From NCBI GenBank assembly GCA_963842215.1, contig CAWJFQ010000005.1:841-64840 (forward strand): DNA of 64,000 bases, in the 5' to 3' direction. This document shows positions 15,007-46,257 of the stretch, in pieces (positions within the stretch are counted from its first letter, which is position 1; every line of letters begins with the position of its first letter). The translations under genes and the position numbers were made by a program. The notes beneath the pieces were generated by a model. It ran no database searches, was not told the origin of the DNA, and was given only the letters and a program-made list of their open reading frames with translations. This DNA is from an uncultured delta proteobacterium (GTDB lineage: Bacteria > Desulfobacterota > Binatia > Binatales > Binataceae).

Positions 15007-15026
15007 TCAAACCCACTTAGTCAAAT

Positions 15027-30915: not shown

Positions 30916-31005
30916 GTTTTCCGAGGTCGATAGTCGCGCGTTCACGCATCGCCTGCAATTGGCGTGCTTGCGTGACTCGTGCGCCGCGCACATTGTTGAT
31001 TCACA

Positions 31006-31539: not shown

Positions 31540-31551
31540 GGAGGTACGATC

Positions 31552-32028: not shown

Positions 32029-32073
32029 CGGCGCATCCATAGCGTATGAGCGGCATAGCGCACCGCGCAGTCG

Positions 32074-32280
32074 CTATTGGATTATTACTTCATCCGGAAA
32101 GAGGAATGTGGTGGCGCCGTCATCGAATTGCACCAGGTACATGCGCCGGTCCAAATTATTTACCTCACGGATGATCCGTGGCTGTTCGCTGAATCGACTG
32201 CGTCCCTCGTGGTCGCGTACGGGTCGCTGCAGCTTGCAATGCTTTCCAATAAGTACTTCAGTATTTAGACTAGCCATCAT
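32074..32280 (-). CDS. small hypothetical protein in an AT-richer pocket
   Basis: 68-aa ORF. GAGGAGG lies 8 nt upstream of the ATG (reverse complement of 32285-32296). No family recognised. Confidence 0.5.
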   Translation of the reverse strand: MMASLNTEVLIGKHCKLQRPVRDHEGRSRFSEQPRIIREVNNLDRRMYLVQFDDGATTFLFPDEVIIQ

Positions 32281-32629
32281 ATTCTTACGGCCTCCTCTTC
32301 CTCCTGGTGAGTCACGTCATCCACATCCTATCCCCATACTAGCAAGCTTCGGGCCTAATATTTAGACGTCCAGGGCAGATTTGTGTTTCAATTTGCGGAC
32401 CCGTGGAAAACCCGTCGAACCGAACGATTTTCTCGTTATTCTGAGATTTCCGGGTTTCAGCTCGGATCTCGGGTGCCTGATTTGAGCCGGGTCAATGCCG
32501 GATTACGGGCATCTTTTAGACAAATTCGCGCCGTACTACTCGGAAAAAGGCCGCAAAAAACAAATCGCGAAACCCTCCACAGTAAATCGTTCCGGTAACG
32601 TAGATTTGAACGTGGGAAAAATTACCTAT

Positions 32630-34396: not shown

Positions 34397-34487
34397 CGGC
34401 CGAACGAGTCTGGAAGTAGTCAAGCAACGTCGCGCGGATCGAATAGACATTCCAATGCGGCGACGTCTTGCTTATGATTTTCGCGCG

Positions 34488-35297
34488 ATGATCAAAATCG
34501 CGAAAAGGGCGACGATTGCGATTGCTCTGCTCATGCTTGCCGGGCGGGCAGGGTTTGCCGCCGATGCGAGTAGTCCCTTGAAAATCGACACTGCCAAAGT
34601 CGTTGACCTGACCTACACCTTCGACGCCTCAACAATTTACTGGCCGACCGAAAAGAGCTTCGTTCATCAGTTCGAGAAAAACGGCGATACCCCGCAGCAT
34701 TACTTTTACTCGTCGGCAAACTATGCGGCCCCTGAGCACGGCGGCACCCATACCGATGCGCCGCGCCATTTCAACCGCGACGGCATGACGCTGGACCAGC
34801 TTCCGCTCGCCGACTGCATCGGGCCCGCCGCCGTGATCGATTTTTCGGCGCGCGCCGCCACCAATCGTGACGCGATGCTTACTGTCGATGACATCAAGAC
34901 GTACGAAGCCGCCAACGGCCCGATTCCTGACGGCGCAATCGTCGTCGCGCGCTCGGGATGGGGCAAATACTATCCGGACAAAAAACGCTACATGGGCACC
35001 GACCAGCCCGGCGACGTTGCCGGCCTGCGCTTTCCCGGGTACTCGGCCGCAGCGGTGGATTTTCTTTTGAAGAACCGCAAGGTCGCGGCAATTGCGATCG
35101 ACACCGCGAGCATGGATCCCGGCAACTCCAAGGATTTCCCGGTGCATCGCCTGTGGCTAGGCGCGAACAAGCCCGGCTTCGAAAATCTGGCCAACGCGGA
35201 GAAATTGCCGGCCAAGGGCGCGACGATATTTTGTATTCCAATGAAAATCGGCGATGGGACTGGCGGCCCGACCCGGATTTTCGCCGTGCTTCCATGA
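34488..35297 (+). CDS. cyclase family protein (kynurenine/aryl formamidase-like), secreted
   Basis: ATG at 34488 gives signal peptide MIKIAKRATIAIALLMLAGRAGFAADA. Metal motif EHGGTHTDAPRHF. Confidence 0.75.
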   Translation: MIKIAKRATIAIALLMLAGRAGFAADASSPLKIDTAKVVDLTYTFDASTIYWPTEKSFVHQFEKNGDTPQHYFYSSANYAAPEHGGTHTDAPRHFNRDGMTLDQLPLADCIGPAAVIDFSARAATNRDAMLTVDDIKTYEAANGPIPDGAIVVARSGWGKYYPDKKRYMGTDQPGDVAGLRFPGYSAAAVDFLLKNRKVAAIAIDTASMDPGNSKDFPVHRLWLGANKPGFENLANAEKLPAKGATIFCIPMKIGDGTGGPTRIFAVLP

Positions 35298-35520
35298 CCT
35301 TTGATACTTGCGGCAAGCGTTGAAGATGAATATTCGTTTATGGCGAAGAATTCGGAAATCGGTAAAATTTCCAGAAGGAAAGCCGATGTTCGAAGTGGTT
35401 GATTGGGCCCGCAGAAGGTAGAAAACTAGCGTCGGTTAGAGAAACCAGCCTGCGAATATTTGTGAGAAATGCGGTCGTTTGCAGGCACGAAAACTGCTCA
35501 TAAGTTGAAGGAGGATGCTC

Positions 35521-35874
35521 GTGCGGACAAATGCGGCGTCGTTGATTAAGGGCCTGCTCGTCGCGATTGCGATCGTAGCGGTCATGGGATGTTCCGGTGA
35601 GCCTCTCTCGACCCGTGAGAAGGGCACGTTTATCGGTACCGGTGTGGGAGCCGCCACCGGCGCAATCATCGGCGCTGCGGTTGGCAATCCGTTGGCAGGC
35701 GCTGCCATCGGTGGTGGTATCGGCGCTCTGGGCGGTTACGCGGTAGGCAACGAGATGCAGAATCGCGAGAACCAACAAGCGCAAACACAGGCGCAGATTA
35801 ACTCGCAGCAACAGCAGATCCAGAGCCAGCAGCGGCAGATTCAGCAGCTTAAGGCCAACAGCGAGACCGAATAG
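35521..35874 (+). CDS. glycine-zipper lipoprotein with Gln-rich coiled-coil tail, paralog 1
   Basis: ORF from 35515. The GTG at 35521 is better spaced from GAAGGAGG. Lipobox VMGCSG, then GVGAATGAIIGAAVGNPLAGAAIGGGIGALGG glycine zipper. Tail QQQQIQSQQRQIQQLKANSETE. Confidence 0.8.
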   Translation: MRTNAASLIKGLLVAIAIVAVMGCSGEPLSTREKGTFIGTGVGAATGAIIGAAVGNPLAGAAIGGGIGALGGYAVGNEMQNRENQQAQTQAQINSQQQQIQSQQRQIQQLKANSETE

Positions 35875-35889
35875 AGGCACCGGAGAATT

Positions 35890-36237
35890 ATGCGGAAACA
35901 TGCGATTCTGACAGGAATATTCGCCGTTGCCGCAATTTTCCTGGTTGCCGGATGCTCCGGCGACCCGATGTCCACGCGGGAGGAAGGCACTTTGGGCGGC
36001 GCGGGTATTGGCGCGGCTACGGGCGCAATCATCGGCGCTGCGGTCGGTGCGCCGCTGGCGGGCGCGGCGATCGGCGCGGCAGCGGGCGGAGTCGGCGGCT
36101 TCGCGATCGGCAATGCGATGCAGAACAATCAGAACGCCAACCAACAGACACAGGAGCAAATCCAATCGCAGCAACAACAATTAGAACAACAGCGTGAGCA
36201 AATACAGCAATTGAAGGGGCAGCAGGAAACCGAATAG
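35890..36237 (+). CDS. glycine-zipper lipoprotein with Gln-rich coiled-coil tail, paralog 2
   Basis: Lipobox VAGCSG. Collinear with paralogs 1 and 3. Ends QQLKGQQETE. Confidence 0.8.
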   Translation: MRKHAILTGIFAVAAIFLVAGCSGDPMSTREEGTLGGAGIGAATGAIIGAAVGAPLAGAAIGAAAGGVGGFAIGNAMQNNQNANQQTQEQIQSQQQQLEQQREQIQQLKGQQETE

Positions 36238-36279
36238 CTCCGCTGACGTATAGTCATTTGGATGATGGAGGTTCTCAAA

Positions 36280-36627
36280 ATGCGCAAGAGTATCGGAATT
36301 ATCATGAGTTTGGCGCTGGCGGGAACGCTCGTTCTTGCAGGATGCTCGGGGCAGCCGCTCTCGACTCGTGAAGAAGGCACCCTCGGTGGCACTGCGGTAG
36401 GGGCTGGCGGCGGCGCACTGGTCGGGGCGGCCGTTGGCCATCCTCTGGCTGGTGCTCTGATCGGCGGTGTGCTTGGCGGTGGAACCGGCTACGCGGTCGG
36501 CAACTCGATGCAGAATCAGCAAAACGCCAACGCACAGACCCAGGCAGAGGTGCAGCAGCAACAGCAGGAAATCGAGAATCAGCGCGAGCAGATTCAACAG
36601 ATGAGGTCGCAGCAGGAGACTGAATAG
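36280..36627 (+). CDS. glycine-zipper lipoprotein with Gln-rich coiled-coil tail, paralog 3
   Basis: ORF from 36262. The ATG at 36280 follows GGAGG. Lipobox LAGCSG. Ends QQMRSQQETE. Confidence 0.8.
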   Translation: MRKSIGIIMSLALAGTLVLAGCSGQPLSTREEGTLGGTAVGAGGGALVGAAVGHPLAGALIGGVLGGGTGYAVGNSMQNQQNANAQTQAEVQQQQQEIENQREQIQQMRSQQETE

Positions 36628-36644
36628 TCAGACCGCACGATCCG

Positions 36645-36692
36645 AAAGAAAAAAAGAGCGGCGTCGATCCCCGGCGTCGCTCTTTTCATTTT
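36645..36692. terminator. bidirectional intrinsic terminator between convergent operons
   Basis: A-tract, then an 11-bp stem GAGCGGCGTCG / CGGCGTCGCTC (two G-U pairs, loop ATCCC; 36656-36682), then TTTTCATTTT. Lies 18 nt after the lipoprotein stop and 20 nt after the MGMT-gene stop. Confidence 0.7.
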
Positions 36693-36711
36693 CTGTCTCC
36701 TCCGCAGCTCT

Positions 36712-37515
36712 TCACTCCGGCTTGCATACCTTGCATGCCCGCAGGCCTTCGTGCCGGGCGCATTTCGAATCCGCGTAGATCAGCACCCGCGACGGGTCCG
36801 CGCGCAGCCCGGCGGAGCAGTCGGGCCGGCAGAAGATTCCGGTCCGTCGATGTCCCATCACGGCGCGCGCAGGCAGCCGCAGGTCGCGTCCGACTTCGAA
36901 TCCTTCCGCCCGCAGCAGCTTGAGCTTGTTGTCCACGCCACCGCCGTAGTTGCCGATAGTGCCGTCGGAGCGAATCACGCGATGGCATGGCACGAAGATC
37001 GGAATCGGATTTGTCGCCATCGTAGTGCCGATCGCGCGCTGGGCGTCCGGCTGTCCAACTGTGGCAGCCAGCTGATGATAGGTGATCACCGCGCCCGGCG
37101 GGACTTTTCTAAGCTGGGTGTATGCACGGCGCTTGAAGTCGCTTTCAACCAGGCTCAAATCCACCGGACGATCCATCGCGCTGAAATCGCCCTCGAACAC
37201 GCGATCGATTTCCGCCGCTATCCGGCGCGCACTCGGCTCATTCTCAATCAGATCGAACTGCTTGCGCAGCATCGCGAGCATCCGTTCCGCGCCGTCGGTC
37301 CACAGAAAGTGAATCCCCGCGACGCCGCGGTCGCTCTCCGCGACCAGCAGGCGTCCAAGTTGCGACGGAATTACGCCGACCCGCGCCTGCGGTCGCCGCA
37401 GGATCTTCATCGCGCGCTCGATGCGCGGCCGCGTCTGTCCGATCAAGGCGTCCAGCGTCCGATCGTCGACTGCGGCACTTTGGTTAAATTCGTTCGAAGT
37501 CCGATTGCTTTTCAT
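36712..37515 (-). CDS. methylated-DNA-protein-cysteine methyltransferase (MGMT/Ogt) with C-terminal Ada-type Cys4 zinc motif
   Basis: LGRLLVAESDRGVAGIHFL (MGMT N-domain), active site IFVPCHRVIRSDG, and C-terminal TGIFCRPDC...GLRACKVCKPE matching E. coli N-Ada TGIFCRPSC...GFRPCKRCQPE. Confidence 0.85.
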   Translation of the reverse strand: MKSNRTSNEFNQSAAVDDRTLDALIGQTRPRIERAMKILRRPQARVGVIPSQLGRLLVAESDRGVAGIHFLWTDGAERMLAMLRKQFDLIENEPSARRIAAEIDRVFEGDFSAMDRPVDLSLVESDFKRRAYTQLRKVPPGAVITYHQLAATVGQPDAQRAIGTTMATNPIPIFVPCHRVIRSDGTIGNYGGGVDNKLKLLRAEGFEVGRDLRLPARAVMGHRRTGIFCRPDCSAGLRADPSRVLIYADSKCARHEGLRACKVCKPE

Positions 37516-37520
37516 CTTGG

Positions 37521-38075
37521 TTACTCTTCGAGCCTGAGCTTTTTAAGTGCCTGGTAGACGCATGCGCGCGCGCTTTCGGCCGAGCAATTCAGCGCCGCGC
37601 CGATCTCCGGATATTCGAGTCCCGCGAACTTGCGCATCATCAACGCCTGACCCTGCTTGCCCGGTAGCCGCGCGATAGCTTTCTTCAAATGAAGCGCACC
37701 CTCGGGCCCGCCGTTGAGTTGATGCGACGCGTGACTATCGAGCGTGGCGTCGTCGGCGGGCTCGTTGGCTATCACGCGCCCGCGGCGCATCCTGTCGCGT
37801 GCGCGATTGCGGCAGAGATTCGAGGCGATCCGAAAGACCCACGGACGCAGCCCGTTTTCCGATTGCAGCGTGGGATAGGCCCGATAGGCGCGCAGCCAGG
37901 TCTCCTGGAACAGATCCATCGCCTCGTCGCGATCGCCGGTCGAGCGCACGAGGAAGCGCATTATCTCGCGCTCCATGCTTTTCACCGCCTCCTCGAACGG
38001 CGGCGGCAATTTGAGATTGAAGGTCGGCATCGCGTCGGTCATGCCAGGCTGGCGATCGAACTCACCAAGTACCAT
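37521..38075 (-). CDS. ECF-type RNA polymerase sigma-70 family factor
   Basis: Region 2 DLFQETWLRAYRAY...WVFRIASNLCRNRARD and region 4 LPGKQGQALMMRKFAGLEYPEIGAALNCSAESARACVYQALKKLR. Alternative start at 38042. Confidence 0.85.
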   Translation of the reverse strand: MVLGEFDRQPGMTDAMPTFNLKLPPPFEEAVKSMEREIMRFLVRSTGDRDEAMDLFQETWLRAYRAYPTLQSENGLRPWVFRIASNLCRNRARDRMRRGRVIANEPADDATLDSHASHQLNGGPEGALHLKKAIARLPGKQGQALMMRKFAGLEYPEIGAALNCSAESARACVYQALKKLRLEE

Positions 38076-38221
38076 AGCGTGATCGATCCGAAAACCACGC
38101 CGAGAATTTCCTCGAGCAGGCAGGCCTGCGCGAGCCGGACGCCGTCACCGATTTCATGTTCTGCCGTGCGATCCGCAACTTCGGTGAATCGCGCCTCATC
38201 AACTTGGATAGTCGGTATCAT
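38039..38221 (-). CDS. possible 60-aa single-pass membrane protein upstream of the ECF sigma gene
   Basis: ATG at 38221 lies 9 nt after AGGAG. C-terminal TM ILGVVFGSITLWYLVSSIASLA. Its TGA forms an ATGA overlap with the sigma Met at 38042. Third-position GC is only moderate, so this is tentative. Confidence 0.35.
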   Translation of the reverse strand: MIPTIQVDEARFTEVADRTAEHEIGDGVRLAQACLLEEILGVVFGSITLWYLVSSIASLA

Positions 38222-38295
38222 TGTTTGATGCTCCTGATACCTACAACCCCGCCCAACGCCATTCGTGAATCGAGATGAATGAGAAAGTGATGAAC

Positions 38296-38527
38296 TCTGT
38301 CCCCTCTCCCTGCAAGGAGAGCTGTGCGTAACTGCTTCGCGTCCCCTCTGTCCCCTCTCCCTGCAAGGGAGAGGAAGGGTGAGGGTCCTATTACAGCGCC
38401 CTGCGCGATTCAGGATTCTGCTCTTTGGTCTAATAGCCCCGCGGAAGTTACGCACAGCTCTCCTGCAAGGGAGAGGAAGGGTGAGGGTCCTATTACAGCG
38501 CCCTGCGCGATTCAGGATTCCGCTCTT
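38296..38527. repeat. composite palindromic/direct repeat block (REP-like)
   Basis: Perfect 58-bp direct repeat at 38361-38418 and 38463-38520. Three CCTCTCCCT-GCA-AGGGAGAGG-type hairpins. 19-bp inverted repeat 38315-38333 / 38446-38464. Confidence 0.85.
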
Positions 38528-38543
38528 GCGATCAGCAGCGCTT

Positions 38544-39323
38544 CTAGATTTTCGGAAGCCCGAATATGCGGGCCGCGTTCTCGATCACCTGCGCGCCTAG
38601 AGCGGCAGCGTCGACGCGGCGGAGATTCGCAAGCATTTCGAGCGTGCGTGTTACATACGCCGGCTCGTTGCGCTTGCCACGGTGCGGCTCGGGCGCGAGG
38701 TAGGGCGAATCCGTCTCGACCATCACGCGGTCGTCGGGGACGATCGACGCGGCCTCGCGAATCGTCGTGGAATTCTTGAACGTGATGATTCCCGAGAAGG
38801 AGATGCAGAATCCAACTGCCACGAACTCCCGCGCCGCGTTAGTGTCGCCGGTGAAGCAATGGATCACACCGCCGCGCGGGCCGATCCCGGTCTTACGCAC
38901 GATCTCGAGCAGTCGGCGCTCGGCGTCGCGGCAATGAATCACGATCGGCAGGCCGAGTTCCGCCGCCAGCGCGAGATGCGCGCGCAATGAAGCTTCCTGT
39001 GCCGCAGGCGGCGAGTGCATGTAGTGAAAGTCGAGTCCGCTCTCGCCGATCGCGACGACTTTCTCTGATGCGGCCAGCTCGCGCAGCTGCGCGATTCGCT
39101 CGGGCGTGCAATCCTTGGCGTCGTGTGGATGCACCCCTACCGCGGCGAAGACATTTTCGTGACGCTCGGCTAGCTCGACCGTCAATCGATCGTTCTCGAT
39201 CGGTCCGATTGCTCCGACCGAGATGATCTGCGCCACCCCGGCGGCGGATGCGCGTGCGATCACGGACTCGACGTCGTCGCGAAACTTTGCGTCCGCGAGA
39301 TGGCAGTGCGTGTCAACGATCAC
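38544..39323 (-). CDS. tatD: TatD family metal-dependent hydrolase/DNase
   Basis: GTG start giving MIVDTHCHL. Motifs GVHPHDA, AIGESGLDFH, PIVIHCRDA, GVIHCFTG, VETDSPYL. Confidence 0.9.
   Translation of the reverse strand: MIVDTHCHLADAKFRDDVESVIARASAAGVAQIISVGAIGPIENDRLTVELAERHENVFAAVGVHPHDAKDCTPERIAQLRELAASEKVVAIGESGLDFHYMHSPPAAQEASLRAHLALAAELGLPIVIHCRDAERRLLEIVRKTGIGPRGGVIHCFTGDTNAAREFVAVGFCISFSGIITFKNSTTIREAASIVPDDRVMVETDSPYLAPEPHRGKRNEPAYVTRTLEMLANLRRVDAAALGAQVIENAARIFGLPKI
39309..39322. repeat. 14-bp direct repeat, left copy (covers the start of tatD and the stop codon of the inserted gene)
   Basis: CGTGTCAACGATCA, identical to 42792-42805. Confidence 0.9.
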
Positions 39324-41194
39324 GTTATTTGATCGAGTAAGTTGGTCGAAGGCCAGTCGTAGGGTGAGGCTTTGACCGCTGTGTAGTTCGCGTCGAGTGC
39401 AGGTTTGAGCAGGACTATCGCCGCGATACGTCGGGCCATCGCGGTGACCTCGTCGATTTCATCAGTACTCAGGTCGCGGCCGAGGAGATCGCGTTCGCGG
39501 TAGCTTAGCCACTTTTTGATCACTTGGTAGCCGCCGATAGTGTATTCCCAAACTAGCGCTGGGATGTTCTTCCAGTACGCGACGCCGTTCAGATAGATAT
39601 CCATTGTCTGCTCGCCAAACCGTTTCATCAATTCAGTGCACGACATCCCTAGTTTCTTCGCGCCAGTCTCCAATGCACCCAGCTCGGCTGGGCTGTAGTC
39701 GCGTATTTTCGCGAGACCCTTCCCTGGCATTACTGCCCCATCCTTGCCGGCGTGACCCCATCCGGCTGTCATAGCGAGGTGTCCCTTAGTTGGCTCAAGC
39801 GAACCGTCGCCCTCGCGCCAGATGACAGCAATCTCTTTCAGTTCTGGACGAATCGCATCAGTCGTAACTCCAGCAACCGGGTTTTCGGTGTCCAACAAAT
39901 TTGCAATTCGACGGCCGAGTTCCGCTGAGTGAATAAGCGCGTCTTTAGAATCCGGTAGCGGAATGCGTGGCCAATCTCCTCGAATGCCGCCGGCATTTTC
40001 CGATAAGTAGGTCGGCGCATAACCGACTGCGAGGCAGTGCAACAAAAGAAAATCGTCTTTAGCAAGTTCGCCCAATTTCTCCAAATATGATCTGCCGACT
40101 GAACTGAGGTTCTTCCGAGGTATCGGCCCCTTCAACGTCGTAGGAATGTAGTACGCATGGCCGCGCAGGAAATCGTTGTCACCCAGGCATCGCGTGAAAT
40201 GGAACGGAATTCCTTCCGGCGATGCAACTCCCGCCGGGCGAGTTATCAGAAACTCGTTCCCATTGTGATTTTGGGCCCAGAGCTGCGGCCTCGCCCGATT
40301 CCAAACGGGAGGCACGGCAGTGAAATAGCACCATCTTGTGTCAAATGGTCTAATCGCGTAGCGAACGACCCGGTTCGCGTCATACGCCTCACTTTCAAGA
40401 GCCTTGCGTCGCGCGTTCTTCGGATCAAATCCCGCTTGCTTGTCGACCAGGCCATAGCCGAGCGCCGAGTACTCGCTCCACTCGAGTTTCGGATTGAAGT
40501 ACGCAAGCATGCGCTTTTCCAACTTCGAGCGATCAACGTCGATGAGCGCGCCTCCGCGCTTTTCCATTAGACCATTTATGGGGGGCATCGCGCATAGATC
40601 GATGATTTTCGGCCAGCTCGAATACTGCTTTGAAGACTTTGAAGGTCTGAACGAATAGCGATTCGACTTCTCGGGGTTTGAGGGTTCATATCCCGCATCG
40701 AAGTCGGATGCCTTCAGGCTATCGAGAAGTTGGGTTCGACGATCTGCAGCTCTCGCCTCATTGAGATCATCACGGAACAGAACTTTCGGGGTCTTCGATT
40801 TTTCTCCGCACTTGATCCAAAGCGAAGTCGCGACGCCCTGTCGAATTCCCGGCGAAAAGCCATGAACTGCGAAAATGGTCTCGCTTGTTTTACCGTTCGG
40901 GGCATATTCAGATATCTTTCGATTTCCGTGAAGATTCTCGATCCAGAATCGATCGAACGAATCCAAAAGATGTTTGCGCATCATCACAAAAGAAGGATCG
41001 CTGATCCATGAGTGGTTCGAGATGAAAAGCGACGACTCCTTTCTTTGAGTGCTCTGCAATCCTTCTCTCGGCGATACGAAAGAATCGGACATACAGATCG
41101 TCCAGATTAAATTTCTTAATCTTCCATTCAGTAACGAGTCCCTCCTTGTACGGCTCGACCAAGCCCATCTCTTCTGCCGGACTAACGCCTGCAA
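39320..41194 (-). CDS. C-terminal fragment of a single-chain RM-like enzyme (post-NPPY MTase region plus type-ISP-like C-terminal/target-recognition part)
   Basis: ORF limits as in the track. Family-like sequence begins near 41029 with LFISNHSWISDPSFVMMRKHLLDSFDRFWIENLHGN. Residues before that are out-of-frame read-through. Confidence 0.75.
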   Translation of the reverse strand: MQALVRQKRWAWSSRTRRDSLLNGRLRNLIWTICMSDSFVSPREGLQSTQRKESSLFISNHSWISDPSFVMMRKHLLDSFDRFWIENLHGNRKISEYAPNGKTSETIFAVHGFSPGIRQGVATSLWIKCGEKSKTPKVLFRDDLNEARAADRRTQLLDSLKASDFDAGYEPSNPEKSNRYSFRPSKSSKQYSSWPKIIDLCAMPPINGLMEKRGGALIDVDRSKLEKRMLAYFNPKLEWSEYSALGYGLVDKQAGFDPKNARRKALESEAYDANRVVRYAIRPFDTRWCYFTAVPPVWNRARPQLWAQNHNGNEFLITRPAGVASPEGIPFHFTRCLGDNDFLRGHAYYIPTTLKGPIPRKNLSSVGRSYLEKLGELAKDDFLLLHCLAVGYAPTYLSENAGGIRGDWPRIPLPDSKDALIHSAELGRRIANLLDTENPVAGVTTDAIRPELKEIAVIWREGDGSLEPTKGHLAMTAGWGHAGKDGAVMPGKGLAKIRDYSPAELGALETGAKKLGMSCTELMKRFGEQTMDIYLNGVAYWKNIPALVWEYTIGGYQVIKKWLSYRERDLLGRDLSTDEIDEVTAMARRIAAIVLLKPALDANYTAVKASPYDWPSTNLLDQIT

Positions 41195-42743
41195 ATGCGT
41201 TGTAAGGCGGGTTACCCAGGATAACGATAATTGGCTTGGTTCGTTTCACCTCATCGGCAGCGTCCCGCTCCTGTTCCAACTGCGGGAACGCGATGATGTG
41301 CTGCTTGGGACCGGTTGGTGGTTCCCAGCCAGTAAGAGAATTCGTCAGATAGACGGCTGCGCGCTCGTTCGCACTTTCAGAAAGAGGTGCGCCGATGTGC
41401 TGCAAGGCAATCCCAACTTGAAGATGCGAGATGACATACGGCGCGGGCATGATTTCGAAACCGAATACGCGCTCCATCGCGGCTTTCTTGACTGCGTTTG
41501 CGGTCAGCGCAGTCTTGCCCTTCTCGATCAGGGTTTTTTCTATTCGCCTGAGGACCTCGACTACGTAGCTGCCCGTTCCACAGCAGGGATCGAGTATGAC
41601 CACGCTCTGATCGGCCAGCCCGTCAGCGATCCCGAGTTCAGAACGCAAGACGGAATCGACCCGCTCAACCATGTAAGTCACGATCTCGGGCGGCGTGTAC
41701 CAGACTCCGAGTTGTTTGCGCAGCGCGGGATCGTACGCCTCCAAGAATGGTTCGTAGAAATACTGCACTGCATGGTGCTCTTCGAATGCTTCGCGGAATG
41801 CCGCTCGATCAACGCGGTTCAGCACTTCACCCGCCCAATCTAGAACTTCATCGATTCCAAGGGCCTTAAGCTGCGTGGGTTCGATGAGTTGATGAAACAG
41901 CACGCCGACGATAGGGACATGAAGATGGTCACCGGCAAGCTTCCAATTGAACTTTGCCTTGCGGTCGGTAGGCGGATGTTCCTTGCTCCACAAAACCCAC
42001 GCCGCAAATGCACCGTAAAAGAGCGTCTGAACCAGCGTGGAGCGAAAGAAGTGTTCGCCTTCATCGCCTTCGAACTTGAGGCCGAGCGCTTGTTCGAGCG
42101 CCTCGCGCAATGCGGCAAGGGCAGGTATCGGATGATTCTCGATGCGCCAGCGCGCCTCGCGCGCATAAGATGCAAGAAACCATGCGACGTCTTTGGGGGA
42201 AGCCAGCGGCGCCGGATGGAGCATCACGCGCCGGATGAAATCAGAGAAGCGGTCCCCCTCTCGCTTCGCCATCGCCTGCGGATGCGCGGCCGCGCTCCAG
42301 AACGATCCCTCGTCGACGGCGAGCTTGTAGCTTTCAAGAACATGCAGACCACCGTCGCCATCCAATGCAACTAAAACAAAATCGCGGAAATTAGTGACCA
42401 GTACCTGACGGTAGAGCTTGAGATACTTGCCGACCTGTTCAGACTTTGCGATAACGACCGCGTCGTCGTTAGTTGGTTTTGCCTCGATCGCGCCGCGCGC
42501 CGGCAGCGTACCTAATGGCGGTTCTGGGTCGCCGCCCTTTGGCAATTGATCTGGCGTATAGAGCCCGCCGTCCGGAATTCCCACGCCCTTGCTCTTTGGA
42601 TTTATGACACATCGCACTTTCGGTTTGAGCGTGCCGCCGATTTCGTTGAGCAGAGCGCGGAGTGCAGAATAATGGGTCGTTTCAGGAACGCCCGCGGAGT
42701 GGGCTTCACACAAATCGCAAAGATAGGATTCGAGCGGATGCAT
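40908..42743 (-). CDS. N-terminal fragment of a single-chain RM-like enzyme (PD-ExK-like nuclease motif plus gamma-class N6-adenine MTase motifs)
   Basis: GIPD...AIEAK, VWYTPPEIV, VILDPCCGTGSYV (motif I), ILGNPPYNAF (motif IV). After ...AEHSKKGVV (about 41031) the frame is wrong. Confidence 0.8.
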   Translation of the reverse strand: MHPLESYLCDLCEAHSAGVPETTHYSALRALLNEIGGTLKPKVRCVINPKSKGVGIPDGGLYTPDQLPKGGDPEPPLGTLPARGAIEAKPTNDDAVVIAKSEQVGKYLKLYRQVLVTNFRDFVLVALDGDGGLHVLESYKLAVDEGSFWSAAAHPQAMAKREGDRFSDFIRRVMLHPAPLASPKDVAWFLASYAREARWRIENHPIPALAALREALEQALGLKFEGDEGEHFFRSTLVQTLFYGAFAAWVLWSKEHPPTDRKAKFNWKLAGDHLHVPIVGVLFHQLIEPTQLKALGIDEVLDWAGEVLNRVDRAAFREAFEEHHAVQYFYEPFLEAYDPALRKQLGVWYTPPEIVTYMVERVDSVLRSELGIADGLADQSVVILDPCCGTGSYVVEVLRRIEKTLIEKGKTALTANAVKKAAMERVFGFEIMPAPYVISHLQVGIALQHIGAPLSESANERAAVYLTNSLTGWEPPTGPKQHIIAFPQLEQERDAADEVKRTKPIIVILGNPPYNAFAGVSPAEEMGLVEPYKEGLVTEWKIKKFNLDDLYVRFFRIAERRIAEHSKKGVVAFHLEPLMDQRSFFCDDAQTSFGFVRSILDRESSRKSKDI

Positions 42744-42791
42744 CTTGACCGTCGAGCTTAGCAGGCGGAAAGCAAAAAGTTAGCTAGTCGC

Positions 42792-42805
42792 CGTGTCAAC
42801 GATCA
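42792..42805. repeat. 14-bp direct repeat, right copy (covers the metG stop and a ghost tatD start)
   Basis: CGTGTCAACGATCA. On the coding strand, ATG ATC GTT GAC ACG (42806 down to 42792) encodes MIVDT overlapping the metG TGA. Confidence 0.9.
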
Positions 42806-44353
42806 TCGCGCTTGAGATTTCTTGTCGATCCGCGGGAACAGCGGCGTCGTCGGATTCACGCGATGGCCCGGCTTGATGCCGGCTCCGTACGCCGCGCTTG
42901 CGACCTGATCGTCGAGGTTGAGCAGGCCTCGAATTTTTTTCGACGATACCGGCATGAAGGCCTCCAGCGTGTAGGCGACCACGCGCAGCCCCTCGACCAG
43001 GTTCGCGAGGATCTGCGCGACCCGCGGTAACTGGCCTGTGTCTTTGGCGAGCGTAAACGGCGAGGTCGCGACGATGTACTTATTTGCGGCGTCGAGCGCC
43101 TGCCAGATTGCTTCCAGAGCGCGATTGAACGCCAGCTCCTCGACCAGCGGTGCAACCCGCGATGGCAGCGAGGCGAAGGTCTCAGCCAGTGCAACGTCGA
43201 GCGTGTTGCCGCCGGCGGCTGGAGTTGCCGTGATCTGACCTTCAAAGTATCGCGCCGCCATCGAAAGTACGCGGCTGGTCAGGTTGCCCAGGTCGTTGGC
43301 CAGGTCCGAGTTGTAGCGATCGATCACGCGCTGCTCGGAAAAATCGCCGTCGAGGCCGTAGGTGAACTCGCGCAGGATGAAGAAGCGCAAAACGTCCGGG
43401 CCGATGTTCTGCTGATAGGCGACCGGGTCTTGCGTGTTGCCCGAGCTCTTCGACAATCGCGCGCCGCCGAAATTCATGAATCCGTGCACGTTCAGATGAC
43501 GATAGAGCGGCAAGCCGACTGTCAGCAGCATCGCGGGCCAGTACACCGCGTGCGTCTTGAGGATGTCCTTGCCGATGAAGTGTTCTGTCACCGGCAGGAT
43601 CGACGTAAGCGCCGCGTCGCTGGTGTCAGGCAGCTCGCTCAGATAGGCCCAGAAAGCGTCGTACCAGACGTAGGTCACGTACTTGTCGTCGAACGGTAGC
43701 GTGATGCCCCAATCGAGGCGCGCCTTGGGACGCGAGATGCAAAGGTCTTCGAGCGGCTCGTCGAGCATCCGCAGCGCCTCGTTGCGATAACGCTCGGGGC
43801 GAATGAAGTCGGGATTTTTCTCGATGTTGCGGCGAATGGCCTCGCGATGCTTTTCGAGCTTCAGGAAATAGTTGCCCTCTTTGATTCGCTCGACGGCAGT
43901 GTTGTGCACCGGACAGATGTTGCCGGGAAGCAACTCCTTCTCGGTGTAAAAGCGCTCACATCCCACGCAGTAAAGGCCTTCGTAGTCCTTGAAGTAGACG
44001 TCGCCGCATTGGTAGCTCCGCGCGAGCATCTTCTGCACGAACGCCTGATGGACAGGGTCGGTGGTGCGGACGAAGTAGTCGTAACTGATGTCCATCCCGG
44101 CCCACGCATCGCGAAAGAGTGCGCTGATTTTGTCGGCAAACGCCTTGGGATGCAGACCGGCAGCTTCGGCCGCGCGCTTGTTCTTGTCGCCATGTTCGTC
44201 GGTGCCGGTGACGAAGGTTACGTTGGCGCGGCCCAGCTTGCGGCGTTGAAAACGTGCGAACGCGTCAGTGGCAAGTATTTCGTAAGCGTGGCCCACGTGC
44301 GGCGGGCCGTTGCTGTAGATGATCGCAGTCGTGATGTGGATGCGATTCGCCAT
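42803..44353 (-). CDS. metG: methionine--tRNA ligase (short form without C-terminal tRNA-binding domain)
   Basis: 516 aa. YSNGPPHVGHAY (HIGH-type) and ARLSKSSGN (KMSKS-type). Zinc knuckle CVGCERF...CPVH. Confidence 0.95.
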   Translation of the reverse strand: MANRIHITTAIIYSNGPPHVGHAYEILATDAFARFQRRKLGRANVTFVTGTDEHGDKNKRAAEAAGLHPKAFADKISALFRDAWAGMDISYDYFVRTTDPVHQAFVQKMLARSYQCGDVYFKDYEGLYCVGCERFYTEKELLPGNICPVHNTAVERIKEGNYFLKLEKHREAIRRNIEKNPDFIRPERYRNEALRMLDEPLEDLCISRPKARLDWGITLPFDDKYVTYVWYDAFWAYLSELPDTSDAALTSILPVTEHFIGKDILKTHAVYWPAMLLTVGLPLYRHLNVHGFMNFGGARLSKSSGNTQDPVAYQQNIGPDVLRFFILREFTYGLDGDFSEQRVIDRYNSDLANDLGNLTSRVLSMAARYFEGQITATPAAGGNTLDVALAETFASLPSRVAPLVEELAFNRALEAIWQALDAANKYIVATSPFTLAKDTGQLPRVAQILANLVEGLRVVAYTLEAFMPVSSKKIRGLLNLDDQVASAAYGAGIKPGHRVNPTTPLFPRIDKKSQAR

Positions 44354-44377
44354 CCACGCAATTGTATGCGAAACGCA

Positions 44378-44420
44378 CCGTGGGATTCAGCAGGGTGACC
44401 CCTGCAACCGATGGTAGAAG
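44378..44420. repeat. two-hairpin intergenic repeat, truncated copy C
   Basis: CCGTGGG...CAGGGTGACCCCTGCAACC...GGTAGAAG matches the right half of the 15027 and 20420 elements. Lies 25 nt upstream of the metG start. Confidence 0.55.
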
Positions 44421-44488
44421 TGATGGATGCGCGGGCGCGGAGGCCGGAACCTCACGAGTCTCCGGTCCCGCGCACGGACATCACGCGG

Positions 44489-45166
44489 TCATCCGTGGAG
44501 TTGTGACGGATGATGCATGCCGTTGGCCGGATGAAGGCGCGCAATGCGTTCAGCCTCGTCCAGCCTGCTCCGCTCGCGCATCGCGCGCGGTTCGCCCACC
44601 GGTATCGCTTCCAGCAAGGCGGTCGCATTGTATGCTTCCGCGAATGACGCATAGCCACCGATCAAGCCCGAGATAAGCGCGGAGATTCCGCCCAGCATCG
44701 TCAGGCTCTCAATCCCGCCAAACATTCCGATGCCTACCAGGCCCAGTGCTATCCACAGAAACAGCAGAACCAGATTGAAGGTGGCAGACTCATTGAACGA
44801 CGCAATCCATAGATACAGTACAACCACCGCCGACACGACAAATATTGTGGCCATGCTCGCGGTGGTGGCAGCCACGGCCGCGTGAACGCCAAGCAAGGTC
44901 ATCTGGCTCAAGCCCCACCAAGCGAAAAACGCGCCGAGAAATGAGAACGTGGTCGCGGCGAGCGCGTCACCGTACGCGAATGCCCACATTCCGGCGAGCA
45001 GCTCGACCAACCCGCCGAACAGCAACGCCTGTATCAGGTAGGGTCCCCAGTGTGAGGGCGTTTGAAGAAGAATGGCCACCCCAATCAAAAAGGTGGTGGT
45101 GCCCAATGCGGCCAATCCCAGAGGGATCGGAGTAGCAAGTCCCTTGTCTTTGCCTGGTCTAAACAT
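44489..45166 (-). CDS. GPR1/FUN34/YaaH family acetate/succinate channel with C-terminal extension
   Basis: N-terminal signature ATPIPLGLAALGTTTFLIG and six TM helices. About 45-aa hydrophilic tail (EPRAMRERSRLDEAERIARLHPANG...). Confidence 0.8.
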   Translation of the reverse strand: MFRPGKDKGLATPIPLGLAALGTTTFLIGVAILLQTPSHWGPYLIQALLFGGLVELLAGMWAFAYGDALAATTFSFLGAFFAWWGLSQMTLLGVHAAVAATTASMATIFVVSAVVVLYLWIASFNESATFNLVLLFLWIALGLVGIGMFGGIESLTMLGGISALISGLIGGYASFAEAYNATALLEAIPVGEPRAMRERSRLDEAERIARLHPANGMHHPSQLHG

Positions 45167-45405
45167 CGTCGATGCCTCCTATTGCACGGTGAACCCTGCA
45201 AAGGCCGACGCGCTCCACCGTGCGTCAATGTTAACCCATTGTCGCCGCTCGGTTGCGTCGGAAGACCGGACGGTTTCCTGCCTAACGTCTCTATTTTCTT
45301 GGACGCGAGCCTATTGAGCCTTATTCACCCGAGCAGTGGTATTAGAAAAATTAATCAGGCGCCTCCTTTAAACGCGAGCTTGGCCGCTCGAATAGGAAGC
45401 TACGG

Positions 45406-46251
45406 CTATTGCGGGCGGGAGGCGACCAGGTCTTCGAGGGTTACTTCGACCACGCCACCGTCTTCCTCGCGCTGAATCAGAACCGTCTGCTTGAGGATAT
45501 TCTGCCGGACGACTTTGCCGTCACCTTTGACGCATTGCACGCGCTTGCCGAGGTTGGGCAGCGCGCGCTTGAGTTCGACATAGGTGGCGTATTCGTAGCG
45601 CAGGCAGCATTTCAGCCGCCCGCACATCCCGGCCAGCCGCGAGGGATTGAGCGCCAGGCCCTGCTCGCGCGCCATCTTGACCGTGACCGCCTCGAAGTCG
45701 CGCAGCCAGCTCGAGCAGCATAGCTCGCGGCCGCACGGACCGAGCCCGCCGGTGACTTTAGTCTCGTCGCGCGCGCCAATCTGTTTCATCTCGACGCGAA
45801 CGCGCAGCGTGTTGGCGAGATCGCGCACCAGGTCGCGGAAATCGACGCGGCCCTCGGCGACGAAATAGAAGGTCACCTTGCGCCCGTCGAAAGTGTAGTC
45901 GGCGCTGACCAGCTTCATCTGGATGCGGCGCTCGCGGATGCGCTCGACGCACAGGCGGCGCGCATTCGCCTCGCGCGAGAGATTTTCCTGCTCGAGGTGG
46001 AAGTCGTTGTCGCTCGCGATGCGAATGATCGGACGCAAGGCGGAGAGATCGATCGTCTGCGCGGGTTCGTGCGGCTCTATCTCTACCGTGCCGACGCGCG
46101 CGCCGGCCTCGCTCTCGACCAGCACGCGTTCGCCTCGTCGCAGCTCGCGGTCGCCGGCCAGAAAATTGTACAGATGGCCAGTCTGCTGGAGACTGACCGC
46201 GACGATTTTCGGCAGCGAGGGCGCGCCTTCAAACGGGTCGATGTCTGCCAC
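45406..46251 (-). CDS. PSP1 domain protein (YaaT/RicT-like)
   Basis: Cys cluster GGLGPCGRELCCSSWL and CGRLKCCLRYE. Conserved position after holB. Confidence 0.85.
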   Translation of the reverse strand: MADIDPFEGAPSLPKIVAVSLQQTGHLYNFLAGDRELRRGERVLVESEAGARVGTVEIEPHEPAQTIDLSALRPIIRIASDNDFHLEQENLSREANARRLCVERIRERRIQMKLVSADYTFDGRKVTFYFVAEGRVDFRDLVRDLANTLRVRVEMKQIGARDETKVTGGLGPCGRELCCSSWLRDFEAVTVKMAREQGLALNPSRLAGMCGRLKCCLRYEYATYVELKRALPNLGKRVQCVKGDGKVVRQNILKQTVLIQREEDGGVVEVTLEDLVASRPQ

Positions 46252-46257
46252 TATCTT

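What the first reader, a model, noticed from the sequence alone, without database searches (positions are those of the whole stretch)
39309..42805. 3.5-kb AT-richer cassette inserted exactly into the metG-stop/tatD-start overlap, bounded by a perfect 14-bp direct repeat with a ghost tatD start
CGTGTCAACGATCA occurs at 39309-39322 and again at 42792-42805. On the coding (minus) strand it reads TGATCGTTGACACG. At the metG side the sequence is cgATGATCGTTGACACGg. There the TGA is the metG stop, and the overlapping ATG-ATC-GTT-GAC-ACG encodes MIVDT. Those are the first five codons of tatD, whose real start at 39323 reads GTG-ATC-GTT-GAC-ACG-CAC-TGC-CAT (MIVDTHCH). The ancestral locus therefore looks like a metG/tatD ATGA overlap into which about 3.47 kb carrying one large RM-like gene was dropped, duplicating the junction. 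The duplicated TGA now terminates the inserted ORF, and tatD is left with a GTG start in a GTGA overlap. My hand counts of 60-nt lines give 43, 43, 50 and 55 % G+C inside the insert (lines 40861, 40921, 39841, 42001). Adjacent tatD and metG lines (38881, 43141) give 65 and 67 %. No integrase, transposase or terminal inverted repeats are visible, so the insertion mechanism is unexplained.
Basis: partly seen in the sequence, partly recalled or inferred. Interest (0 to 1): 0.75.

Follow-up and report, generated by a model that had tools for sequence, protein, structure and literature searches.

The report
Restriction-enzyme gene inserted between metG and tatD
A single foreign gene for a combined DNA-cutting and DNA-methylating defence enzyme was inserted exactly at the overlap of two housekeeping genes in an uncultured soil bacterium (Candidatus Binatus), duplicating 14 bases so both neighbours stayed intact; this is a clean example of an already described way in which such genes move without a transposase or integrase.

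Summary
The 14-mer occurs exactly twice, at 39309-39322 and 42792-42805. It brackets a 3469-bp insert with 54.6 % G+C, against 61.7 % for the rest of the window. The insertion reading is also supported. The cargo is one gene for a single-chain Type IIG/IIL restriction-modification enzyme resembling DrdV. In this window an extra T at 41025-41028 splits it into two ORFs. That is probably an assembly error, because a second assembly of the same population lacks it.

The event is not unique to this genome. Another Binatus lineage (L086) carries the same insert with the same ends. None of 80 other Binataceae species representatives has the gene at this site. Related copies sit at two other loci, one of them shown to be in Binatus; that one has an 8-bp target duplication. 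A distant homologue (L091) is flanked by a 385-bp direct repeat.

No transposase, integrase or terminal inverted repeats are present. This fits the known class of restriction-modification gene insertion with target duplication (Furuta et al. 2010). It is a new member of a known kind, of moderate interest. The molecular mechanism remains inferred.

The parts
42803..44353 (-). metG (methionyl-tRNA synthetase, 516 aa). Its stop TGA (42805-42803) lies inside the metG-side repeat copy.
   Evidence: ORF list. Pfam tRNA-synt_1g, E 5.7e-86.
42792..42805 (-). metG-side copy of the 14-bp direct repeat (TGATCGTTGACACG on the coding strand). It contains the metG stop. Together with A42806 it forms the ghost tatD start ATG-ATC-GTT-GAC-ACG.
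   Evidence: It aligns to the single copy at the empty sites of L169 and L006.
42780..42806 (-). Ghost start read as an 8-codon mini-ORF, ATG ATC GTT GAC ACG GCG ACT AGC TAA (MIVDTATS*). It may or may not be translated.
   Evidence: Read directly. L086 has an analogous 9-codon ORF ending at the homologous TAA. Its being open is not significant on its own.
42744..42791 (-). 48-nt 5' leader of the insert. It holds a motif shared with the closest homologues at other loci (CT-AACTT..TG..TGCTAAGCT) and is probably the gene's own promoter or regulatory region.
   Evidence: Alignment of WIN, L086, L002 and L005 upstream regions. The motif is present only in this subfamily. No consensus sigma-70 promoter or terminator was found there.
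39320..42743 (-). Gene for a single-chain Type IIG/IIL restriction-modification enzyme, 1140 aa once the frameshift is repaired. It comprises an N-terminal PD..ExK nuclease with a helical connector (aa 1-320), a gamma-class N6-adenine methyltransferase (about aa 320-660) and a Type_ISP_C target-recognition domain (about aa 660-1140).
   Evidence: Pfam N6_Mtase and Type_ISP_C. PADLOC REase_MTase_IIG, E 1.7e-88. PDB sequence hits to DrdV, LlaGI and LlaBIII. AlphaFold model of aa 1-320 with pLDDT 89, best fold hit DrdV. Invariant P57 D58 E87 K89, DPxxGTG and NPPY in 26 homologues.
41025..41028 (-). T run (TTTT on the coding strand) holding one extra base, which splits the gene into ORFs 40908-42743 and 39320-41194.
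   Evidence: The near-identical contig L001 has TTT here and an intact frame across this point, but has its own extra T near window 41900.
39900..40750 (-). Part of the target-recognition region that is only about 50 % identical in nucleotides to the L086 allele, while the rest of the gene is 75-96 % identical. It is next to the lowest G+C of the insert (47-48 % at about 40600-41200). This indicates replacement of the target-recognition domain.
   Evidence: Sliding identity of WIN against L086. G+C profile.
39309..39322 (-). tatD-side copy of the 14-bp repeat. Its TGA (39322-39320) now terminates the restriction-modification ORF.
38544..39323 (-). tatD (TatD-family hydrolase, 259 aa). It now starts with a GTG made from the last base of the insert plus the TG of the repeat, in a GTGA overlap with the restriction-modification stop.
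   Evidence: Pfam TatD_DNase, E 3.5e-82.

Best explanation
A 3469-bp piece of foreign, lower-G+C DNA was inserted into the 4-base metG-stop/tatD-start overlap (ATGA) of a Candidatus Binatus chromosome. It carries only a short leader and one gene for a DrdV-like Type IIG/IIL restriction-modification enzyme. The insertion duplicated 14 bp of target (TGATCGTTGACACG).

The duplication is why both housekeeping genes survived. The upstream copy keeps the metG stop and a now useless tatD ATG. The downstream copy supplies the stop of the new gene and, with the last G of the insert, a new GTG start for tatD. The gene lies in the same orientation as the operon with no terminator on either side. It is therefore probably co-transcribed with metG and tatD, and tatD is probably translationally coupled to it.

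The event was not made by an element-encoded transposase or integrase. The most likely route is insertion with target duplication, as described for restriction-modification genes. In that route a linear DNA fragment is captured at a staggered or resected chromosomal break, or at a replication gap, and the overhangs are filled in (inferred).

The event happened once, some time ago within the genus, rather than in this genome's recent past. The same insert with the same ends is found in a second Binatus lineage, and its silent-site divergence is similar to that of the flanking tatD. Its present patchy distribution is best explained by homologous exchange of filled and empty alleles between lineages, by precise loss between the two repeat copies, or by both.

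The gene has been kept under purifying selection while its target-recognition domain was replaced. Descendant copies appear to have moved to at least two other loci (one shown to be Binatus), taking a remnant of the tatD start with them.
For: Shown:
- Exact 14-bp repeat at both ends, and the reading frames as described.
- Empty sites with a single copy and an ATGA overlap in the closest relatives, L169 and L006.
- metG-tatD adjacency conserved across the family.
- Strong G+C, GC3 and tetranucleotide anomaly confined to the insert.
- No mobility-gene Pfam families among the genes called within 8 kb on either side in L001.
- No terminal inverted repeats.
- No terminator-like site on the coding strand at either junction.
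- L086 has metG-RM-tatD with homologous insert ends (..|ccgctactaacttcc and ctcgatcaaataacc|GTGGTC..). Its flanks are 93 % identical to species with empty sites but only 87 % to this window.
- Restriction-modification codons 1-650, WIN against L086: dN 0.039, dS 0.53, ratio 0.07. The tatD 5' end has dS 0.43.
- The target-recognition region is only about 50 % identical between the two alleles.
- Second site: L005 and L168 against the empty L171 give an 8-bp duplication, TCAAACGG/TCAAACGA. Their host is Binatus.
- Only L002, L005 and L168 carry a tatD-start-like sequence directly after the restriction-modification stop. In L168 it is GTGATGACAGTCGATGCG against GTGATGATAGTCGATACG at the L029 junction, 16/18, about 1 in 300 shuffles.
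- The distant homologue L091 is flanked by 385-bp direct repeats that are 98.7 % identical. Removing the insert and one copy restores an ORF of at least 497 codons.
- Literature: restriction-modification genes inserted with variable target duplications and no mobility genes, and allelic target-recognition-domain substitution in Type IIG genes (PMC2853133).

Inferred: break repair as the mechanism, co-transcription, translational coupling, and the direction of the secondary moves.
Against: - A duplication of 14 bp is shorter than the >30 bp threshold used to define 'long target duplication'. It lies in a range that some transposases and casposases can also produce.
- Only one origin event is available at this site, so the length distribution of the duplication cannot be tested here.
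- The metG-side junction of L086 differs: 31 extra nucleotides and a decayed ghost, 9/12 matching its own tatD start. This is not fully explained by simple descent.
- The tatD-like remnant next to the copies at other loci could instead mean that the element already carried that sequence and used it as homology for integration.
- The donor of the gene was not found. The closest homologue outside this site is 73 % identical.
- Nothing about expression or enzyme activity was tested.
Confidence: 0.6

Rival explanations
1. Non-autonomous mobile element. The cassette was cut and pasted by a transposase, casposase-like integrase or other recombinase encoded elsewhere in the genome. That enzyme makes staggered cuts 14 bp apart, so the 14-bp repeat is a classical target-site duplication.
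For: The duplication is clean and exact, with no filler at either end. At a second Binatus site a related unit has an 8-bp duplication plus a 15-nt motif, GGGCGAATT(A/C)GGCCA, near both ends. Furuta et al. describe repeat-flanked restriction-modification units with 8-bp duplications, including a Type IIG gene. From my own knowledge, casposons make 14-15-bp duplications.
Against: - The window insert has no terminal inverted or direct repeats at its ends.
- The L005 terminal motif is absent from the window, even with 2 mismatches allowed.
- Duplication lengths differ between events (8, 14 and 385 bp), and the unit ends differ between sites.
- The insert is single-copy in the window. No copy more than 82 % identical in protein was found in 5.8 billion proteins.
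- No transposase or Cas1 lies within 8 kb.
Confidence: 0.15
2. Homology-driven integration. The incoming DNA already carried a tatD-start-like sequence next to the gene's stop, either as a circle or as a fragment from a donor in which the gene already sat upstream of a tatD. It recombined with the chromosomal tatD start through that short homology. On this reading the repeat is two homologous partners, not a fill-in duplication.
For: Copies at other loci carry a tatD-start-like sequence directly after the stop codon. Homology-facilitated illegitimate recombination is an established route in transformable bacteria (my own knowledge). The tatD start is highly conserved, so short homology would be available in many recipients.
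Against: - The two copies are 14/14 identical, whereas tatD starts differ at 1-3 synonymous positions even between close Binatus species. This favours a true duplication within one genome.
- More distant homologues outside Binatus lack the tatD-like tail, so it is more simply a remnant picked up at this site.
- The model presupposes an earlier gene-tatD junction and so does not explain the origin.
Confidence: 0.17
3. The filled state is ancestral and the 'empty' sites are deletions. On this reading the gene was always between metG and tatD, and relatives lost it by recombination between the repeats.
For: Precise loss between 14-bp repeats is mechanistically easy. Some losses probably did occur, given the patchy distribution.
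Against: - metG-tatD adjacency without the gene holds in all 80 species representatives, down to 66 % MetG identity.
- The insert has foreign composition.
- The upstream copy keeps an in-frame ATG-ATC-GTT-GAC-ACG, which only makes sense as a former tatD start.
- The repeat itself must have arisen by duplication of a single-copy junction.
Confidence: 0.03
4. Assembly artefact. On this reading the cassette was joined into the metG-tatD locus by misassembly at a short shared word.
For: The source is a metagenome assembly with homopolymer errors.
Against: The same junctions occur in a second, independently assembled contig that differs at 68 positions over 16.8 kb. The same arrangement occurs in an unrelated metagenome contig, L086.
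Confidence: 0.01

Closest known systems
[quoted passage not shown] 2000; Furuta, Abe & Kobayashi 2010, PMC2853133)
   Same: - A complete restriction-modification unit is inserted into a conserved chromosomal site.
- The empty site is seen in relatives.
- Direct repeats at both ends both align to the single target copy.
- The insert has lower G+C.
- There is no transposase, integrase or inverted repeat.
[quoted passage not shown]
- A distant homologue of this very gene family (L091) shows a 385-bp duplication.
   Different: - The duplication here is 14 bp, below the >30 bp operational threshold of that class.
- The target is a stop/start overlap inside an operon, so the duplication has a visible functional consequence: both genes are preserved and a new GTG start is created.
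- The host is an uncultured Binatota lineage rather than a cultured, naturally competent species.
DrdV and the MmeI-like Type IIL / Type IIG single-chain restriction-modification enzymes
   Same: - Same domain order: nuclease, helical connector, gamma-class N6-adenine methyltransferase, target-recognition domain.
- The best solved-structure match is DrdV, both by sequence (E 1.4e-37 with a profile) and by fold for the N-terminal 320 aa (E 2e-4).
- PADLOC Type IIG model, E 1.7e-88.
   Different: - Only about 15 % identity to DrdV in the N-terminal part, and the fold match has a low TM-score (0.30).
- Recognition sequence, cleavage distance and activity are unknown.
- Public annotation calls relatives 'type ISP', but the helicase and Mrr parts of true Type ISP enzymes are absent.
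Classical insertion sequences, MITEs and casposons (target-site duplication made by staggered cuts)
   Same: An exact short direct duplication of the target flanks a discrete insert. Casposons give 14-15 bp (my own knowledge, not tested here).
   Different: There is no transposase or Cas1, no terminal inverted repeats and no multiple copies. Duplication length differs between related events.

Membership tests
Type IIG/IIL single-chain restriction-modification enzyme (DrdV/MmeI-like) | N-terminal PD-(D/E)XK nuclease domain fused to the methyltransferase | tested here: met
   P57-D58 ... E87-x-K89 are invariant in 26 homologues. The PADLOC Type IIG model covers aa 21-516. The AlphaFold model of aa 1-320 (pLDDT 89) has DrdV as its best PDB match (E 2e-4), with BpuSI next. 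No sequence-level PDB match exists for aa 1-317, and catalysis was not tested.
Type IIG/IIL single-chain restriction-modification enzyme (DrdV/MmeI-like) | Gamma-class N6-adenine methyltransferase with the AdoMet motif and NPPY | tested here: met
   Pfam N6_Mtase, E 1.1e-9. D385-P-x-x-G-T-G and N511-P-P-Y are invariant. It aligns to the DrdV, LlaGI and LlaBIII methyltransferase domains.
Type IIG/IIL single-chain restriction-modification enzyme (DrdV/MmeI-like) | C-terminal target-recognition domain in the same chain | tested here: met
   Pfam Type_ISP_C, E 5.5e-30. The profile match to DrdV extends to residue 861.
Type IIG/IIL single-chain restriction-modification enzyme (DrdV/MmeI-like) | Intact reading frame and enzymatic activity | tested here: inconclusive
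   The window has a +1 T frameshift at 41025-41028. The sister assembly L001 lacks it but has a different one, which makes assembly error likely. Activity cannot be tested with these tools.
Type ISP restriction-modification enzyme (LlaGI/LlaBIII), as relatives are annotated | Mrr-like nuclease plus SF2 helicase-like translocase, N-terminal to the methyltransferase | tested here: not met
   There are no helicase or Mrr Pfam hits. Matches to LlaGI and LlaBIII start only at their methyltransferase (chain residues 672 and 836). The protein is 1140 aa, against 1406-1578 for the solved LlaGI and LlaBIII chains.
Restriction-modification insertion with long target duplication (Furuta et al. 2010 criteria) | Insert contains both restriction and modification functions, is shorter than 20 kb, and has no mobility genes | tested here: met
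   A single fused restriction-modification gene in a 3469-bp insert. No mobility families within 8 kb.
Restriction-modification insertion with long target duplication (Furuta et al. 2010 criteria) | Both repeat copies align to a single copy at the empty site of a related genome | tested here: met
   L169 and L006.
Restriction-modification insertion with long target duplication (Furuta et al. 2010 criteria) | Target duplication longer than 30 bp | tested here: not met
   The duplication is exactly 14 bp, with the flanking bases differing on both sides. The threshold is quoted.
DNA transposon / insertion sequence / MITE | Transposase gene in the element, or terminal inverted repeats for action in trans | tested here: not met
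   The restriction-modification gene and its 48-nt leader fill the insert; other minus- and plus-strand ORFs inside it overlap that gene and were not scanned. No inverted repeat lies at the insert ends.
DNA transposon / insertion sequence / MITE | Multiple copies with the same ends and a fixed duplication length | tested here: not met
   The insert is single-copy in the window. Related units at other sites have different ends and duplications of 8 bp or 385 bp.
Integrase-mediated integrative element | Tyrosine or serine recombinase gene in or next to the element | tested here: not met
   Pfam families of all called genes within 8 kb in L001 include none.
Integron gene cassette | attC recombination site with GTTRRRY / RYYYAAC cores, and a neighbouring intI with a cassette array | tested here: not met
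   By eye, the junction has GTTGACA (third R not met) and no matching inverse core. No integrase or array is nearby. No formal attC model was run.

The most novel reading that the evidence does not exclude
This family of DrdV-like single-gene restriction-modification enzymes could be a self-mobilising element. On this reading the enzyme's own nuclease, or the breaks it provokes, drives insertion of the bare gene into new chromosomal sites. It would leave target duplications of variable length (8, 14 and 385 bp seen here) and sometimes carry along scraps of the previous site, such as the tatD-start remnant at two other loci (one shown to be Binatus). That would make it a one-gene mobile element with no dedicated recombinase, as Kobayashi's group hypothesised but never demonstrated.
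Probability: 0.12. Interest if true: 0.75.

Novelty: new member of a known kind. Interest (0 to 1): 0.4.

Why it matters
The case shows at base-pair resolution how a defence gene can be placed inside an essential operon without damaging it. The duplicated junction supplies a stop for one gene and a new start for the next.

It extends the phenomenon of restriction-modification genes moving without mobility genes to an uncultured soil phylum (Binatota). It also provides a small natural series within one genus: three loci, target duplications of 8 and 14 bp, and a carried-over remnant of the first site. That series could be used to work out the still unknown mechanism.

For annotation, it is a reminder that proteins labelled 'type ISP' and lacking a helicase are Type IIG/IIL enzymes. 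It also shows that single-base frameshifts in long-read metagenome assemblies should not be read as pseudogenes without a second assembly.

Tried and rejected
- **Flanking-repeat screen.** I looked for the longest exact repeat between 400-bp upstream and downstream flanks of 61 homologous loci. Only WIN (14 bp, at the exact ends), L091 and L102 exceeded 11 bp.
- **L102.** Its 14-mer turned out to be part of a palindromic REP-like element, and its flanks are shared with L105, so it was dismissed.
- **Weaker flank repeats.** Those in L098, L099, L103 and L162 were not followed. They lie far from the gene and look like dispersed repeats.
- **Promoter and terminator scan.** It found nothing useful on the coding strand at the junctions.
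- **RNA features.** tRNA and Rfam scans of the window found only one tRNA-Leu at 14923-15008, so this is not a tRNA-targeted island.
- **P0001.** It is the closest protein homologue (82 %), on a 3954-bp contig whose gene spacing resembles metG-RM-tatD. Its DNA was not retrievable, so it could not be used.
- **Closer relatives.** No relative with TatD above 90 % identity exists in the protein collection, so the event cannot be dated more finely.
- **L086 spacer.** I tried to read the 31-nt extra spacer at the metG-side junction of L086 as a remnant of a WIN-type metG end. The similarity is too short and too G+C-rich to trust, so I left it unexplained.
- **Integron cassette, casposon and XerCD/dif-type readings.** I considered and rejected these for lack of attC cores, Cas1 or inverted repeats, or a dif-like site. 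This was judged by eye and from the gene content, not with dedicated models.
- **L005 terminal motif.** GGGCGAATTNGGCCA is absent from the window.


Full report
**1. The observation**

CGTGTCAACGATCA occurs exactly twice in the 64-kb window, at 39309-39322 and 42792-42805. All three genes involved lie on the minus strand, where the repeat reads TGATCGTTGACACG.
- At the metG side the sequence is gcgcgATGATCGTTGACACGgcgactagc. The TGA is the stop of the 516-aa metG ORF (42803-44353). The overlapping ATG-ATC-GTT-GAC-ACG is in frame with nothing downstream.
- At the tatD side the sequence is caaataacGTGATCGTTGACACGcactgccat. The TGA ends the inserted ORF, and the overlapping GTG starts the 259-aa tatD ORF, 38544-39323.
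- The bases next to the repeat differ on both sides, so the repeat is exactly 14 bp.

Composition of the 3469 bp between the copies (39323-42791):
- G+C is 54.6 %, against 61.7 % for the rest of the window. None of 536 equal-sized windows falls below 58.4 %.
- It is the lowest-G+C stretch of the window.
- GC3 is 60 %, against 77-79 % in metG and tatD.
- Its tetranucleotide profile is 6.6 sd from the background.

The 14-mer is not a common word. With up to one mismatch it occurs three times in 952,604 bp of related loci, each time at a tatD start.

**2. The cargo**

The insert holds one gene, but in this window it is split into ORFs 40908-42743 and 39320-41194 by a one-base frameshift in a T run at 41025-41028. 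Removing one T gives a 1140-aa protein.

L001 is a near-identical contig from another assembly of the same population (ERZ25039522 contig_31081; 68 differences over 16.8 kb).
- It has TTT at this place and an uninterrupted frame across it.
- It has its own extra T in another T run near window 41900.
- It also carries a one-base indel that breaks its copy of holB (DNA polymerase III delta', an essential gene).

The indels therefore look like long-read homopolymer errors, and the gene is probably intact in the cells.

Evidence on what the protein is:
- Pfam finds N6_Mtase and the Type_ISP_C specificity domain.
- A PADLOC model for Type IIG restriction-methyltransferase fusions matches with E 1.7e-88, from residue 21 onward.
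- The best solved relatives are DrdV (7lo5), LlaGI and LlaBIII, matching from the methyltransferase onward.
- The first 320 residues have no sequence match in the PDB. In 26 homologues P57-D58 ... E87-x-K89 are invariant, as are the AdoMet motif and NPPY.
- An AlphaFold model of residues 1-320 (pLDDT 89) finds DrdV as its best fold match (E 2e-4), then the Type IIG enzyme BpuSI.
- There is no helicase.

The protein is thus a single-chain Type IIG/IIL restriction-modification enzyme, not a Type ISP enzyme as relatives are labelled, and not an orphan methylase. The family is very large (more than 8000 hits) and is spread over many phyla at 55-60 % identity. It also occurs on plasmids and on contigs classed as viral.

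**3. The empty site**

A scan of one genome per species with MetG returned 80 loci, nearly all labelled Candidatus Binatus, Binataceae or 'delta proteobacterium' MAGs. The best has 90 % MetG identity, so the window comes from an uncultured Binatus lineage.
- None of the 80 loci has the restriction-modification gene.
- In most, tatD follows metG directly, and in many Binatus species the stop and start overlap by 1-4 bases.
- L006 reads cagccacgATGATCGTCGACACGCACTGTCAT.
- L169 is the closest relative found (metG 92.1 % and tatD 89.6 % nucleotide identity, same downstream genes). It reads aaatctcaagcacgATGATCGTTGATACGCACTGCCAT.

The direction of the change is clear for three reasons. metG-tatD adjacency holds across the whole family. 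The insert has foreign composition. The upstream copy still carries the former tatD ATG.

**4. The event is shared, not private**

A metagenome scan with the protein found L086, a 3874-bp contig with the order metG-RM-tatD.
- Its insert ends are homologous to those of the window. The metG side reads ...CTCGATACTCG|ccgctactaacttcc, against ...TTGACACG|gcgactagctaactttt. The tatD side reads ctcgatcaaataacc|GTGGTCATCGATACG, against ctcgatcaaataac|GTGATCGTTGACACG.
- The same boundaries mean the same original event.
- The flanks of L086 are 93 % identical to species that have empty sites (L017, L018, L020, L030) but only 87 % identical to the window. The window's own closest relative, L169, is empty. 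The filled allele is therefore patchily distributed.
- Over codons 1-650 the two alleles have dN 0.039 and dS 0.53 (ratio 0.07). The adjacent tatD has dS 0.43. The gene is therefore about as old as the split of the two lineages and has been under purifying selection.
- The central part of the recognition domain (window 39900-40750) is only about 50 % identical, so the domain was replaced.
- In L086 the gene has an in-frame TAG at codon 360, its ghost tatD start has decayed, and 31 unexplained nucleotides separate the ghost from the metG stop.

A single old insertion, followed by exchange of filled and empty alleles through the homologous flanks, by precise loss between the repeats, or by both, is the simplest account.

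**5. Related copies elsewhere**

The closest homologues outside this site (72-73 % identity, and one at 66 %) are solitary genes among housekeeping genes at two other loci.
- One locus lies between a glyoxalase and an acyl-CoA dehydrogenase (L005, L168).
- The other lies between Fur/rubrerythrin and a cyclopropane-fatty-acid-synthase-like (Pfam CMAS) methyltransferase gene (L002-L004).
- The L005/L168 host is Binatus.
- L002 shares a 31-nt dispersed-repeat motif with L005 and with a Binatus species representative, L020.
- These copies share the roughly 45-nt leader with the window. More distant homologues do not.

Comparison with the empty site L171 shows that the L005 unit (4447 bp) has an 8-bp target duplication, TCAAACGG/TCAAACGA. 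It also has a 15-nt motif near both ends that is absent from the window.

Directly after the stop codon, L002, L005 and L168 carry a sequence that resembles a Binatus tatD start. In L168 it is GTGATGACAGTCGATGCG, against GTGATGATAGTCGATACG at the L029 metG/tatD junction: 16/18, reached by about 1 in 300 shuffles. More distant homologues do not carry it.

The simplest reading is that these copies descend from a copy that sat in front of tatD and took a scrap of it along. The reverse reading, that the element used this sequence as homology to enter at tatD, is kept as a rival.

A distant homologue (L091, 58 %) is flanked by 385-bp direct repeats that are 98.7 % identical. Deleting the insert and one repeat restores an ORF of at least 497 codons.

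**6. Mechanism**

What is absent:
- No transposase, integrase or other mobility gene lies in the insert or within 8 kb.
- There are no terminal inverted repeats.
- No tRNA gene is at the site.
- There is no second copy in the window.

Across related events the duplication length varies (8, 14 and 385 bp), and so do the ends of the unit. [quoted passage not shown] They suggested it depends on DNA double-strand breakage. The same paper reports repeat-flanked restriction-modification units with 8-bp duplications, and recognition-domain substitution in a Type IIG gene (PMC2853133).

I therefore take capture of a linear fragment at a staggered or resected break, or at a replication gap, followed by fill-in, as the most likely origin of the 14-bp duplication. 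This step is inferred, not shown. The 14 bp fall below the 30-bp operational threshold of that class, so I describe the event as working like it rather than as a formal member.

Selection explains why this particular insertion is seen. Only an insertion that duplicates the ATGA junction leaves both metG and tatD intact.

**7. Function in place**

The gene has the orientation of the operon. No terminator-like site lies on the coding strand at either junction. tatD now starts in a GTGA overlap with the restriction-modification stop. Co-transcription and translational coupling are therefore likely, but untested. The enzyme presumably methylates its own recognition sites and cuts unmodified incoming DNA, as DrdV-type enzymes do. 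The specificity is unknown and differs between the two alleles.

**8. Verdict**

The added facts are:
- the identity of the cargo;
- the probable assembly frameshift;
- the host;
- the shared and patchy nature of the insertion;
- the related events with other duplication lengths;
- the link to a described class of restriction-modification gene mobility.

It is a clean and instructive new member of a known kind, of moderate interest. The more novel possibility, that this one-gene family mobilises itself, is not excluded but is not supported beyond the circumstantial pattern.

Noticed in passing
window 30567-47310 compared with L001: The window and the second assembly of the same population differ at 68 positions. 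Of these, 60 (57 substitutions and 3 indel columns) lie in 45403-47310, covering the holB/PSP1 region. This suggests a strain-level recombination tract or a mixed-strain consensus there. All the indels are in short homopolymers or repeats, and one breaks holB in L001.
   Followed up: partly
L007, L012, L014, L033, L024, L019, L015, L037, L053, L060, L076, L079 (between the metG stop and the tatD start): The metG-tatD junction is a variable spot in Binataceae.
- Other species carry unrelated inserts of 0.7-3.6 kb there. These include secreted proteins of 650-905 aa with NHL repeats and ASH/Ig-like domains, a short-chain dehydrogenase with two unknown ORFs, a small-molecule SAM methyltransferase, and unknown membrane proteins.
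- None shows a junction duplication like the window's.
- In L010, L025, L041 and L042 tatD is not within 6 kb of metG.
   Followed up: partly
L053 7540-8290: A 736-bp insert carrying a SAM-methyltransferase gene is bounded by GAAGTGA on both sides, at the metG stop and at the tatD GTG start. This could be a 7-bp junction duplication of the same kind, or it could be chance.
   Followed up: no
L091 995-1379 and 5032-5416: Direct repeats of 385 bp (98.7 % identical) flank a 58 %-identical homologue of the restriction-modification gene. The sequence just outside the upstream copy encodes a signal peptide similar to, but diverged from, the one outside the downstream copy. The history may therefore involve paralogues or a donor fragment, rather than a simple duplication.
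   Followed up: partly
L005 5819-10265; L168 4810-8788; empty site L171 5870-5877: A second Binatus insertion site of the same gene subfamily, with an 8-bp target duplication. The motif GGGCGAATT(A/C)GGCCA sits near both ends of the unit, and two further motif-like copies (GCGAATTAGGCCAC, GCAATTTAGGCCAC) lie at the upstream end. The structure is transposon-like, but the motif is found nowhere else among the 174 loci held at the time of the search.
   Followed up: partly
L002 9421-9470; L005 9409-9460; L168 8489-8540: A tatD-start-like sequence lies directly after the restriction-modification stop codon in the copies that are not next to tatD. In L002 the weak collinear similarity may extend to about tatD codon 18.
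   Followed up: partly
L086 1237-1239 and 3643-3645: The L086 allele has an in-frame TAG at codon 360 (GAG in the window) and an earlier TAA stop at its end. It is probably a recent pseudogene, even though purifying selection acted over most of its history.
   Followed up: yes
window 40794-40943 (protein residues 600-650): In this block the window protein is only 22-24 % identical to its closest full-length homologues (P0001, P0003, P0004, P0006), but 72 % identical to the more distant P0005 and P0007. This is a small mosaic patch inside the gene.
   Followed up: no
L002 5721-5751 and 5867-5897; L005 9822-9852; L020 12051-12081: A dispersed GC-rich repeat (GTCATCCCGA..GAGGGACCCCGGA) clusters around the restriction-modification genes at the other loci. 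It is present in a Binatus species representative (L020) and absent from the window.
   Followed up: no
window 31001-33500: The second-lowest G+C stretch of the window (57-58 %). It was not examined.
   Followed up: no
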